IMG/VR virus record: IMGVR_UViG_2061766007_000586
Span: 160,001 to 224,000 of that record
DNA from: a virus
Lineage: Duplodnaviria; Caudoviricetes
Length of the DNA: 64,000 nucleotides
Direction: 5' to 3' (one strand)
Of this stretch, positions 20,508-63,551 are shown piece by piece. How positions within the stretch are numbered: position 1 is the first letter of the stretch; each line of letters opens with the position of its first letter. The position numbers and the translations under genes are program-made. The notes beneath the pieces were generated by a model that saw only the letters and a program-made list of their open reading frames with translations, was not told the origin of the DNA and did no database searches.

Positions 20508-20549
20508 TTTGTTAAATCCTGTTCTTGGTTAGACAAAAGAAAAAAGAAA

Positions 20550-20657
20550 TGGTTGGGACGTCTGGGTTTGAACCAGAATTGCCTTCTTGCTGCCTAGCAT
20601 CCTCGTTAGTACTAAGCTGGCGTACGGAGTCCTGCCTATACTTTAGACTACGTCCCA
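20550..20657 (-). ncRNA. tRNA-like RNA with an enlarged anticodon/variable region
   Basis: Acceptor TGGGACG/CGTCCCA + A-CCA; D-arm GTCT..GGAC; T-arm TCTGG-TTCAAAC-CCAGA; about 50 nt between D and T arms with no canonical anticodon arm. Confidence 0.7.
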
Positions 20658-20660
20658 ATA

Positions 20661-20836
20661 TGATCGGCTGTTGCAAGATTCGAACTTGCTTCTCCAAACG
20701 TGAAACTATTAAACGGGATTAATCGATTAAATCTTACAATCTTCTTGAAGAAGGTGTTTCACATACTTGGTATGCTATCTTGTCCTGAAGTCGTACTAAG
20801 GTCGACCACGTGCTTCAACACTACACCAAACAACCG
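20661..20836 (-). ncRNA. tRNA-like RNA with a ~100-nt structured insertion
   Basis: Acceptor CGGTTGTT/AACAGCCG; D-arm GTGT..GCAC; T-arm GCAAG-TTCGAAT-CTTGC; nested hairpins in between. Confidence 0.65.
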
Positions 20837-20843
20837 AAATAAA

Positions 20844-20926
20844 TGGTGCTGAGGGCGGGACTCGAACCCGCATGGATTGCCCGGCAGATTTTAAGTCTGC
20901 TGCGTATGCCATTTCGCCACCCCAGC
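20844..20926 (-). tRNA. trnL: tRNA-Leu(TAA)
   Basis: Cloverleaf GCTGGGG...GCAGA-CT-TAA-AA-TCTGC, long variable arm, GTTCGAG, CCA. Confidence 0.95.
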
Positions 20927-63436: not shown

Positions 63437-63551
63437 TGGTGGGACAGGTTGGACTTGAACCAACGACATAGGCGTTATCAGCGCAAAATAGTTGCTGTTA
63501 GTATCCGAGACGGATACATTTTACTTGCTCTACCTTCTGAGCTACTGTCCC
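63437..63551 (-). tRNA. trnI: tRNA-Ile(GAT) interrupted by a 39-nt insert in the 5' strand of the anticodon stem
   Basis: Removing 63485-63523 gives a perfect 76-nt tRNA with AGGCG-CTGATAA-CGCCT. Confidence 0.85.

What the first reader, a model, noticed from the sequence alone, without database searches (positions are those of the whole stretch)
20550..20836. Two enlarged tRNA-like RNAs downstream of tRNA-Leu that share a CTTAGTAC motif
Seen: the 108-nt and 176-nt elements keep the acceptor stem, D-arm and a canonical TTCRA T-loop, and one ends in A-CCA. The anticodon/variable region is replaced by about 50 nt and about 120 nt of hairpinned sequence. Both inserts contain CTTAGTAC shortly after the D-arm. 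The longer element can form an 8-bp acceptor plus 5-bp T-stem, a tRNA-Sec-like geometry. Inference: the tRNA scaffold may carry a cargo RNA domain, or these may be intron-bearing tRNAs. I could not find an excision that restores a clean anticodon arm.
Basis: partly seen in the sequence, partly recalled or inferred. Interest (0 to 1): 0.75.

Follow-up and report, generated by a model that had tools for sequence, protein, structure and literature searches.

The report
Two anticodon-less tRNA-framed phage RNAs
A 319-kb rumen phage encodes, right after a leucine tRNA, two conserved small RNAs that keep the tRNA frame but have no anticodon arm. The shorter one carries the tag found on RNAs that accompany a Ro60-like phage protein, so it is probably a new, inverted form of a Y RNA; the cargo of the longer one is unknown.

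Summary
The two elements are real. E2 (window 20657..20550, minus strand, 108 nt, ends ACCA) and E1 (20837..20661) keep an acceptor stem, D-arm and canonical T-arm. Between position 26 and the T-stem they carry 56 and 120 nt. In relatives they are 93-97% identical, against 74-79% for the flanking genes. No excision restores an anticodon arm in either, and neither insert matches a group I intron. A relative's tRNA-Leu does carry a recognisable group I intron. The intron reading therefore fails and the cargo-in-a-tRNA-frame reading stands. The shared CTTAGTAC is at chance level (p about 0.1-0.2) and is not kept in E2 homologs. A tRNA-Sec-like 8/5 geometry is not needed, because 7/5 fits better.

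E2's cargo is a hairpin followed by an invariant GCAGCAA. This matches the helix-plus-ACAGCAA tag that I found beside DUF2828 genes in 8 of 9 loci. The phage has such a gene 50 kb away, and its model folds like Ro60. In a mycobacteriophage the tagged RNA encloses a YrlA-like tRNA mimic. E2 is therefore best read as a Y-like RNA with inverted topology (about 0.55). E1 lacks the tag and its cargo is unexplained.

Earlier notes of this scan report the tag family in other genomes. No RNA-seq could be obtained.

The parts
20844..20926 (-). tRNA-Leu(UAA), the first gene of the small RNA array. It has no intron here.
   Evidence: ARAGORN. Rfam RF00005 at 58.4 bits.
20661..20837 (-). E1, a tRNA-framed RNA. 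In the 7/5 reading the mature RNA is 20835..20665, with discriminator G and no encoded CCA.
   Evidence: Sequence. T-arm plus acceptor scan. Homologs in L002 and L012. 96-97% identity.
20673..20689 (-). E1 T-arm, GCAAG-TTCGAAT-CTTGC.
   Evidence: Invariant in 3 homologs.
20694..20770 (-). E1 long arm. CCAA..AUGUGAAAC pairs with GUUUCACGU..UUGG and closes a junction with two hairpins. The tip of one hairpin (H3) is about 21 nt longer in relatives. This is the cargo of unknown function.
   Evidence: Folds of 3 homologs constrained to the tRNA frame. The indel sits at the tip of hairpin H3. The other hairpin (H5) changes from A-U to G-U, and its loop varies.
20793..20800 (-). CTTAGTAC in E1. It lies in a small predicted hairpin after the D-arm.
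   Evidence: Sharing with E2 is at chance level.
20550..20657 (-). E2, a 108-nt tRNA-framed RNA with a 7-bp acceptor, D-arm, 5-bp T-stem and encoded ACCA.
   Evidence: Six full-length homologs at 96% mean column identity.
20593..20616 (-). E2 cargo hairpin, CTTAGTA(C)-loop-(A)TGCTAGG. CTTAGTAC (20616..20609) is its 5' strand.
   Evidence: In homologs the stem changes only by G-U/A-U and C-G/U-G swaps. The loop is replaced in L015 (TAACGAGG versus AAACGAAAAC).
20587..20593 (-). GCAGCAA, a variant of the ACAGCAA tag. It lies in the invariant stretch GCAGCAAGAAGGCAAT.
   Evidence: The same G-variant occurs in a DUF2828-adjacent mycobacteriophage RNA.
20561..20577 (-). E2 T-arm, TCTGG-TTCAAAC-CCAGA.
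   Evidence: Homologs vary only at T-loop positions 57 (A/G) and 60 (C/T).
63440..63551 (-). E3, a related element in the same window. It is a tRNA-Ile(GAU) frame with a 39-nt hairpin + TA + ACAGCAA module inserted at 28/29.
   Evidence: Rfam tRNA at 47.2 bits. One excision restores AGGCG-CTGATAA-CGCCT.

Best explanation
E1 and E2 are not decoding tRNAs and not intron-bearing tRNA genes. They are small non-coding RNAs built on a tRNA frame.

They are probably transcribed with tRNA-Leu as one array. The tRNA frame would let the host tRNA-processing enzymes (RNase P, the 3' trimming enzymes, the CCA-adding enzyme) cut them out precisely and keep them stable. This step is inferred.

In E2 the anticodon arm is replaced by a short closing helix (GCC/GGC), a hairpin and an invariant single-stranded GCAGCAA(GAAGGCAAU). 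This is the same module that marks RNAs encoded beside the Ro60-like DUF2828-vWA protein in many phages. That protein is encoded once in this genome, at 229680-231160, about 50 kb away.

I infer that E2 is bound through this tag by the phage Ro60-like ring. It would then act like a Y RNA, as an adaptor or gate whose tRNA-shaped end contacts tRNA-binding enzymes or substrates. Compared with bacterial and mycobacteriophage YrlA the topology is inverted. In YrlA the RNA ends sit in the protein-binding helix and the tRNA mimic is internal. In E2 the ends sit in a true acceptor stem and the tag is internal.

E1 uses the same frame but carries a different 120-nt cargo: a long arm closing a junction with two hairpins, and no tag. 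Its partner and function are unknown.

My odds are as follows. Both are functional, non-decoding, tRNA-framed RNAs: about 0.8. E2 is a client of the DUF2828 protein: about 0.55. E1 has a distinct partner rather than being a decaying copy: about 0.6.
For: Shown here:
- Frame and coordinates.
- Purifying selection: E2 is 93-96% and E1 96-97% identical to homologs, against 90% for tRNA-Leu and 74-79% for the flanking genes.
- All substitutions in E2 fall where a tRNA frame tolerates them. These are G-C to G-U in the acceptor, the D-loop, T-loop positions 57 and 60, and the hairpin stem (wobble swaps) and loop. The single-stranded stretches AGGACUCCGUACGCCAG and GCAGCAAGAAGGCAAU never vary.
- No anticodon arm by any single excision and none free-standing above chance.
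- E2's insert contains a hairpin followed by [ACG]C[AT]GCAA. The genome-wide chance rate of about 21 per 637 kb gives about 0.002 for a 56-nt insert.
- Same-strand intergenic ACAGCAA copies sit beside DUF2828 genes in 8 of 9 loci from unrelated phages, 26 exact copies in all, often inside tRNA arrays.
- The G-variant GCAGCAA occurs in one of these arrays.
- tRNA-framed carriers of the module recur: E3 and E4 here and L019a next to the closest DUF2828 homolog.
- The genome's DUF2828+DUF7788 protein gives a model with pLDDT 92. Its 13 best PDB matches are all Ro60/Rsr, full length, with E down to 9e-7.
- The mycobacteriophage Wyatt2 RNA with clamp + TA + GCAGCAA encloses a YrlA-like tRNA mimic (RF02553, 36.4 bits, E 1.4e-6).

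From the literature: Chen et al. 2014 (PMC4201824) showed that Rsr binds YrlA. They also showed that M. smegmatis YrlA is cut by RNase P and receives CCA.
Against:
- No binding test is possible with these tools.
- E2's tag departs from the consensus. It has G in place of the first A. It has 0-1 nt between helix and motif where most copies have 2.
- The descriptor alone is not enriched genome-wide: 30 observed against 21 expected.
- E2 lies 50 kb from the DUF2828 gene, not beside it.
- The homologs are too similar for compensatory double changes: 0 such pairs in either alignment. The secondary structures of the cargos therefore rest on energy, wobble swaps and indels only.
- E2's D-loop lacks the G18-G19 pair, so a canonical tRNA elbow is not assured.
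- E1 has no tag, no paralogue and no Rfam match, so nothing positive is known about its cargo.
- E1 is missing from five contigs that keep E2.
Confidence: 0.55

Rival explanations
1. Both are intron-bearing tRNA genes. The inserts are removed, by self-splicing or by proteins, to give decoding tRNAs.
For: Real tRNA interruptions exist in this lineage. A relative's tRNA-Leu has a group I intron. E3, E4 and L019a can each be restored to a perfect tRNA by one excision.
Against: Exhaustive single-excision enumeration gives no 5-bp anticodon stem with U33 and R37 for E1 or E2. E1 yields only two 4-of-5 solutions with a single Watson-Crick pair, which is chance level at 12% of shuffles. There is no group I or other ribozyme match at E <= 10. 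The inserts (56 and 120 nt) are far below group I size. The genome has no RtcB.
Confidence: 0.04
2. They are tRNA-shaped decoys. These acceptor/T-arm mimics without anticodons would soak up host defence enzymes or toxins that attack tRNAs, independently of the Ro60-like protein.
For: The tRNA frame is intact, with an encoded ACCA in E2. Conservation is strong. The elements sit in a tRNA array of a phage that carries more than 20 tRNAs. That phage tRNAs can counter tRNA-targeting defences is established knowledge, not tested here.
Against: A decoy does not explain why the invariant parts of E2 are the single-stranded cargo stretches rather than the frame. It also does not explain why the cargo matches the DUF2828-associated module. 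Anticodon nucleases need an anticodon loop, and both elements lack one.
Confidence: 0.12
3. E2's GCAGCAA is a coincidence. E1 and E2 belong to an unrelated, unknown class of tRNA-framed RNAs with partners other than DUF2828. One candidate partner is the second, vWA-less DUF2828-like protein of this phage.
For: The descriptor is not enriched genome-wide. E2's helix-to-motif spacing is atypical. E2 is 50 kb from the DUF2828 gene. E1 has the same frame without the tag. A diverged paralogue exists at genome 287367-288419 (hhalign 97.9%, E 4.7e-13).
Against: The chance of a hairpin plus motif in a 56-nt insert is about 0.002. The motif stretch is invariant in all six full-length homologs while the neighbouring loop is replaced. 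Other tRNA-framed RNAs in this genome and in L019 carry the canonical module.
Confidence: 0.2
4. They are decaying tRNA pseudogenes disrupted by insertions and have no function.
For: There is no anticodon arm. E1 shows presence/absence polymorphism among relatives. E1 has no encoded CCA.
Against: They are more conserved than the functional tRNA-Leu beside them and much more than the flanking genes. Substitutions respect the helices. The first 95 nt of E1 are identical in three genomes, although the tRNA-Leu of the window and of L002 differs at 8 positions.
Confidence: 0.06

Closest known systems
YrlA-type Y RNAs with Ro60/Rsr (Rfam RF02553; Chen et al. 2014, PMC4201824)
   Same: A small RNA combines a tRNA-like module with a module bound by a Ro60-fold ring protein. 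It is encoded by bacteria and phages. M. smegmatis YrlA is cut by RNase P and gains CCA. A DUF2828-adjacent mycobacteriophage RNA with the GCAGCAA tag scores as YrlA-like.
   Different: E1 and E2 do not match RF02553 at E <= 10. The topology is inverted: the ends sit in a true 7-bp acceptor stem with ACCA, and the tag replaces the anticodon arm. The tag is (A/G)CAGCAA after a helix, not the GNCGAAN0-1G helix strand of YrlA. The protein is DUF2828+vWA, not Pfam TROVE, and the genome has no TROVE hit.
Helix + ACAGCAA RNAs beside DUF2828 genes
   Same: E2 has a hairpin followed by GCAGCAA inside a closing helix, like E3, E4 and L019a. The partner gene is present in the genome. The element lies in a tRNA array, as in Felix O1 and in Bacillus and Listeria phages.
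   Different: The first base is G rather than A. The spacer is 0-1 nt instead of 2. The element is 50 kb from the gene. No anticodon arm remains. E1 lacks the tag altogether.
Engineered tRNA scaffolds for recombinant RNA (Ponchon and Dardel; Ponchon et al. 2013, PMC3753655)
   Same: A cargo RNA replaces the anticodon arm, while the acceptor, D- and T-arms give processing and stability. That is exactly the architecture of E1 and E2.
   Different: That is a laboratory design. This would be a natural counterpart, and processing and stability have not been measured.
Group I intron in tRNA-Leu(UAA)
   Same: It interrupts a tRNA gene between the D-arm and the T-arm. It is present in the tRNA-Leu directly upstream of E2 in relative L014 (RF00028, 42.7 bits, E 1.5e-9).
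   Different: The E1 and E2 inserts are 56 and 120 nt, have no group I match, and leave no anticodon arm after removal.
Class I RNAs of dictyostelid amoebae (Kjellin et al. 2021, PMC7919456)
   Same: A short terminal stem is followed by a conserved, unstructured 11-nt motif next to its 5' strand, and the rest of the RNA is variable. The paper's text as held does not spell the motif out, so I could not check this.
   Different: These are eukaryotic RNAs of 42-65 nt with no tRNA frame. The link is a lead only.

Membership tests
tRNA (Rfam RF00005), decoding tRNA | Cloverleaf with a 5-bp anticodon stem and a 7-nt loop (U33, R37) | tested here: not met
   The tRNA model gives no hit at E <= 10 for E1 or E2. 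No arm appears after any single excision. Free-standing arm-like hairpins are at the chance level.
tRNA (Rfam RF00005), decoding tRNA | 7-bp acceptor, U8, D-arm, 5-bp T-stem with a TTCRA loop, discriminator plus CCA | tested here: met
   Read directly from the sequence and from the scan. E2 encodes ACCA. E1 has discriminator G and no CCA.
Intron-containing tRNA gene | Removing one insert restores a canonical tRNA | tested here: not met
   for E1 and E2. Positive controls E3, E4 and L019a are restored.
Group I intron (RF00028) | Match to the catalytic core model | tested here: not met
   No hit at E <= 10. The L014 tRNA-Leu intron is detected with the same tool.
YrlA (RF02553) | Match to the covariance model: terminal Ro-binding helix with GNCGAA and an internal T-arm/D-arm mimic | tested here: not met
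   No hit at E <= 10. The module order is inverted.
Helix + ACAGCAA RNAs of DUF2828 loci | Helix of 6-7 bp, about 2 nt, then single-stranded ACAGCAA | tested here: inconclusive
   E2 has a 6-7-bp hairpin, a 0-1-nt spacer and GCAGCAA, invariant in 6 homologs. The G-variant is seen in Wyatt2. E1 has no such motif.
Helix + ACAGCAA RNAs of DUF2828 loci | A DUF2828/vWA (Ro60-fold) protein is encoded in the same genome | tested here: met
   Pfam PF11443 + PF25043. The model's top 13 PDB hits are Ro60.
Helix + ACAGCAA RNAs of DUF2828 loci | The RNA is physically bound by the protein | not testable with these tools
   No protein-RNA docking or binding data are available.
tRNA-Sec | 8/5 (bacterial) acceptor/T geometry, UCA anticodon, long variable arm, 6-bp D-stem | tested here: not met
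   The 7/5 reading fits E1 better. The only UCA-like loop (ACCTT-CTTCAAG-AAGAT, 4 of 5 bp) is at chance level. That loop is not kept in L002 and L012, where the hairpin tip is about 21 nt longer. There is no 6-bp D-stem.
tmRNA | tRNA-like domain with G3-U70 plus a tag reading frame; detected by ARAGORN or Rfam | tested here: not met
   ARAGORN -m finds none here. The only Rfam match is a 13.9-bit fragment hit to permuted tmRNA.

The most novel reading that the evidence does not exclude
The hairpin + ACAGCAA module may be a portable tag that converts tRNA genes into clients of a phage Ro60-like ring.

In E3, E4 and L019a the module sits as an extra arm at position 28/29-29/30 of otherwise perfect tRNAs. 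In E2 (and E5) the anticodon arm is gone and only the frame and the tag remain. The phage would then field a graded series, from tagged decoding tRNAs to pure tRNA-shaped Y RNAs. This series would tether the Ro60-like protein to the tRNA-handling machinery or to the ribosome, for RNA quality control, tRNA protection or repair during infection. E1 would be a further tRNA-framed RNA with a second, unknown partner, possibly the vWA-less DUF2828 paralogue.
Probability: 0.25. Interest if true: 0.8.

Novelty: new variant of a known kind. Interest (0 to 1): 0.55.

Why it matters
Ro60 with its Y RNAs is a conserved RNA-surveillance particle, and what its tRNA-like modules do is still unknown. If E2 is bound by the phage Ro60-like protein, the module order can be inverted. 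The result is a genuine tRNA frame, processed like a tRNA, that carries the protein tag where the anticodon should be. That gives a compact, testable substrate for asking what the tRNA-shaped end recruits.

It would also be a natural counterpart of the laboratory tRNA scaffold for expressing foreign RNAs.

For annotation, enlarged tRNA-like genes in phage tRNA arrays should not be called pseudo-tRNAs or intron-bearing tRNAs without an excision test.

Tried and rejected

2. Close relatives in IMG/VR. Two protein-anchored scans and three DNA patterns found nothing. A DUF2828 single-protein scan also found nothing. Relatives came instead from the look-up of encoding contigs and one metagenome scan.

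3. A 17-nt E2 pattern in prokaryote genomes gave more than 120 scattered hits in unrelated taxa. I judge them to be chance matches, and they are uninformative.

4. Antisense targets. blastn-short of E1 and E2 against the phage's own genome gave nothing longer than 13 nt (E about 0.6). The host is unknown, so host targets were not tested.

5. Homology between the E1 and E2 inserts. Local alignments are at the level of shuffles, so I dropped the idea that E1 is a degenerate copy of the E2 module.

6. A tRNA-Sec or opal-suppressor reading of E1. A UCA-like loop exists but is at chance level and is not conserved. ORFs in the window are long under code 11.

7. Covariation. No compensatory double changes were seen in either alignment, because the homologs are too close.

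8. The promoter/terminator scan was uninformative for the array itself.

10. The genome has no TROVE and no RtcB.

Full report
**What is there**

The window is bases 160001-224000 of a 318.6-kb virus record. The record carries more than 20 tRNA genes. On the minus strand, tRNA-Leu(UAA) (20926..20844) is followed after 8 nt by E1 (20837..20661). After 3-7 nt comes E2 (20657..20550), then a T-rich run and a 148-aa ORF.

E2 reads as a textbook tRNA frame. It has a 7-bp acceptor TGGGACG/CGTCCCA, U8 and A9, and a 4-bp D-stem. It also has a 5-bp T-stem with loop TTCAAAC, discriminator A and an encoded CCA. Between position 26 and the T-stem lie 56 nt instead of about 22.

E1 reads the same way. Its parts are GGTTGTT/AACAGCC, U8 G9, D-stem GTGT/GCAC, T-arm GCAAG-TTCGAAT-CTTGC and discriminator G, with no CCA. 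Its middle part is 120 nt. Two further pairs (TC/GA) can lengthen the E1 acceptor. The 7/5 reading puts U8 in place and leaves no stray base at the T-stem/acceptor junction, so nothing Sec-like is required.

A strict scan of the whole genome for a T-arm with an adjoining 7-bp acceptor finds the normal tRNAs plus a few enlarged elements. The enlarged ones with a canonical TTCRA loop in the tRNA arrays are E1, E2, E3 (window 63551..63440) and E4. A fifth, E5, has an odd T-loop.

**Are they real genes?**

Homologs of the downstream 148-aa and 199-aa proteins led to contigs of related phages, and one metagenome scan added another.

- E2 is present in L002, L003, L006, L012 and L014-L017.
- E1 is present only in L002 and L012.
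- L008 has neither.
- L010 and L011 have a different tRNA-like element in the same slot.

Identity to the window is:

| Region | Identity |
|---|---|
| E2 | 93-96% |
| E1 | 96-97% |
| tRNA-Leu | 90% |
| upstream spacer | 82-87% |
| flanking genes | 74-79% |

Both RNAs are therefore under stronger constraint than the bona fide tRNA beside them.

In E2 the few changes sit where a tRNA frame tolerates them: a G-C to G-U change in the acceptor, the D-loop, and T-loop positions 57 and 60. They also sit in the cargo hairpin, as wobble swaps in the stem and a replaced loop in L015-L017. The stretches AGGACTCCGTACGCCAG and GCAGCAAGAAGGCAAT never change.

In E1 the variation is a 21-nt longer tip of hairpin H3, an A-U to G-U swap with loop changes in hairpin H5, and a U-A to U-G change at the base of the acceptor. 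No compensatory double change is available, because the homologs are too close.

**The shared motif**

CTTAGTAC is in both elements. Local alignment of the two inserts scores no better than shuffles (p = 0.10 and 0.22; with relatives' E2, 0.4-0.8). The 8-mer occurs 12 times in the genome. In E2 homologs it reads CTTAGTAT, TTTAGTAT or CTTAGTAA. In E2 it is the 5' strand of a hairpin, while in E1 it lies in a different context. I treat the sharing as chance.

**Introns?**

I enumerated every single excision that would leave position 26, a 17-nt anticodon arm and a 4-5-nt variable loop. E1 and E2 give no arm with five pairs, U33 and R37. E1 gives only two poor 4-of-5 solutions, as do 12% of shuffles. 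Free-standing arm-like hairpins are at the number expected by chance. They include one UCA-like loop in E1, and that loop is not kept in L002 or L012, where the hairpin tip is longer.

The same test restores perfect tRNAs from three controls:

- E3 gives Ile GAU after removal of 39 nt.
- E4 gives Thr AGU after removal of 41 nt.
- L019a gives a UAC anticodon after removal of 48 nt.

In each control the cut lies at 28/29-29/30.

Rfam finds nothing in E1 or E2 at E <= 10. It does detect a group I intron in the tRNA-Leu of relative L014, just upstream of that phage's E2 (42.7 bits, E 1.5e-9). The genome has no RtcB. The intron reading is therefore rejected for E1 and E2.

**What E2 carries**

The E2 insert folds as a 3-bp closing helix (GCC/GGC) that encloses a hairpin of 6-7 bp. 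The hairpin is followed directly by GCAGCAA.

Earlier notes of this scan pointed to a "helix + ACAGCAA" tag on RNAs beside DUF2828 genes. I treated this as a lead and tested it.

1. The genome has one DUF2828+DUF7788(vWA) gene at 229680-231160. Tagged RNAs lie just upstream of it.
2. An AlphaFold model built on 48 homologs has pLDDT 92. Its 13 best PDB matches are all Ro60/Rsr, over the full length.
3. tblastn finds the protein in 710 phage records. Mycobacteriophage annotators call it "Ro-like RNA binding protein".
4. I fetched nine loci. Eight have 2-6 exact ACAGCAA copies in the intergenic DNA next to the gene and on its strand, 26 in all, against 2 on the opposite strands. In Felix O1 and in the Bacillus and Listeria phages these copies lie among tRNA genes.
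5. One copy in mycobacteriophage Wyatt2 has the same G-variant as E2. It is a 7-bp clamp + TA + GCAGCAA that encloses a tRNA mimic, and Rfam scores that mimic as YrlA-like (36.4 bits, E 1.4e-6, below gathering).
6. L019 holds the closest DUF2828 homolog (55% identity). Upstream of its gene there are again tRNA-framed carriers of the module.

A loose descriptor (a hairpin of at least 6 bp, 0-3 nt, then [ACG]C[AT]GCAA) is not enriched genome-wide: 30 hits against about 21 expected. Its chance of falling in a given 56-nt insert is about 0.002.

Weak points remain. The spacer is 0-1 nt rather than 2. The first base is G. The partner gene is 50 kb away. Binding is untested.

**How it probably works**

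The following is inference. The array tRNA-Leu-E1-E2 (with tRNA-Trp in some relatives) is transcribed as one unit, and the host tRNA-processing enzymes cut it at the tRNA frames. For a related RNA this has been shown: M. smegmatis YrlA is cleaved by RNase P and receives CCA (Chen et al. 2014).

E2 would then be held by the phage Ro60-like ring through its tag and would present a tRNA-shaped end. By analogy with Y RNAs it would act as a tether or gate for the ring. Relative to YrlA the topology is inverted.

E1 uses the same frame for a different cargo: a 13-bp interrupted arm that closes a junction with two hairpins. It has no tag, no paralogue or antisense target in the phage, and no Rfam match. 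Its function is open.

A second, vWA-less and highly diverged DUF2828-like protein exists in the genome (hhalign 97.9%). It is a conceivable partner for E1, but nothing links the two.

**Comparison and novelty**

E1 and E2 fail the membership tests for decoding tRNA, intron-bearing tRNA, group I intron, YrlA, tRNA-Sec and tmRNA. E2 works most like a Y RNA of the YrlA kind and is built like an engineered tRNA scaffold (Ponchon et al. 2013).

DUF2828 appears in only five papers of the searchable library, and from their titles and abstracts none concerns phages or RNA partners. Other recently described bacterial tRNA mimics are Rfam motifs, and none matches here.

The scan's earlier notes report the tag family in many other genomes, and E3 in this window was already noted. 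E2 is thus a further member with an unusual, anticodon-less form, and E1 is an orphan. I class the finding as a new variant of a known kind.

**Limits**

There are no expression data, no binding data and no covariation. The host is unknown.

Noticed in passing
L014:3451-3778 (relative contig ENA ERZ28593758 scaffold_978): The tRNA-Leu(UAA) of this relative is split by a group I intron of about 250 nt (RF00028, 42.7 bits, E 1.5e-9). By eye the 5' exon ends ...CGCAU and the intron ends ...AAAG. That places it in the anticodon stem at 27/28, not in the anticodon loop as in classic bacterial tRNA introns. The window's own tRNA-Leu has no intron.
   Followed up: partly
window 63440-63551 (-); genome 231594-231707 (-); L019:1570-1691: Three tRNA-framed carriers of the hairpin + ACAGCAA/ACTGCAA module become perfect tRNAs (Ile GAU, Thr AGU, anticodon UAC) when a single 39-48-nt block is removed at 28/29-29/30. 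Each has about a 1-2% chance in shuffles. The module thus behaves like a discrete insertion into the 5' strand of the anticodon stem. Whether it is ever removed is unknown.
   Followed up: partly
genome 287367-288419 (-), outside the window (L025:868-1920): A second, highly diverged DUF2828-like protein of 349-350 aa. It covers only the helical ring part and has no vWA domain (Pfam 25.8 bits, below cut-off; hhalign 97.9%, E 4.7e-13). About 270 nt of ORF-free, hairpin-rich sequence lies upstream of it, with no ACAGCAA.
   Followed up: partly
L021:3527-3652 (Mycobacterium phage Wyatt2, downstream of the 'Ro-like RNA binding protein'): The middle of three tagged RNAs is a 7-bp clamp (TGGACTC/GAGTCCA) + TA + GCAGCAA that encloses a T-arm/D-arm mimic. 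Rfam scores the mimic as YrlA-like. This ties the ACAGCAA-tagged RNAs to the published mycobacteriophage Y RNAs.
   Followed up: partly
L010:265-372 and L011 (more distant relatives): In the slot after tRNA-Leu these phages carry a different 100-nt tRNA-like RNA (acceptor GAAGTTG/CAACTTC, T-loop TACAAAT). It has a long irregular arm in place of the anticodon arm and no ACAGCAA. The slot seems to host exchangeable tRNA-framed RNAs.
   Followed up: no
window 20508-20549 (-): E2's CCA is followed by TTTCTTTTTTTCTTTTG. In relatives a tRNA-Trp sits at this place instead. The T-run after the stable acceptor helix may end the transcription unit, but the simple terminator scan did not flag it.
   Followed up: no
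window 20607-20616 (-): In this genome only, a T-to-C change makes TTAGTACTAA in E2 a perfect 10-nt palindrome. The same change breaks the innermost pair of the cargo hairpin (C-A). Relatives have TTAGTATTAA.
   Followed up: no
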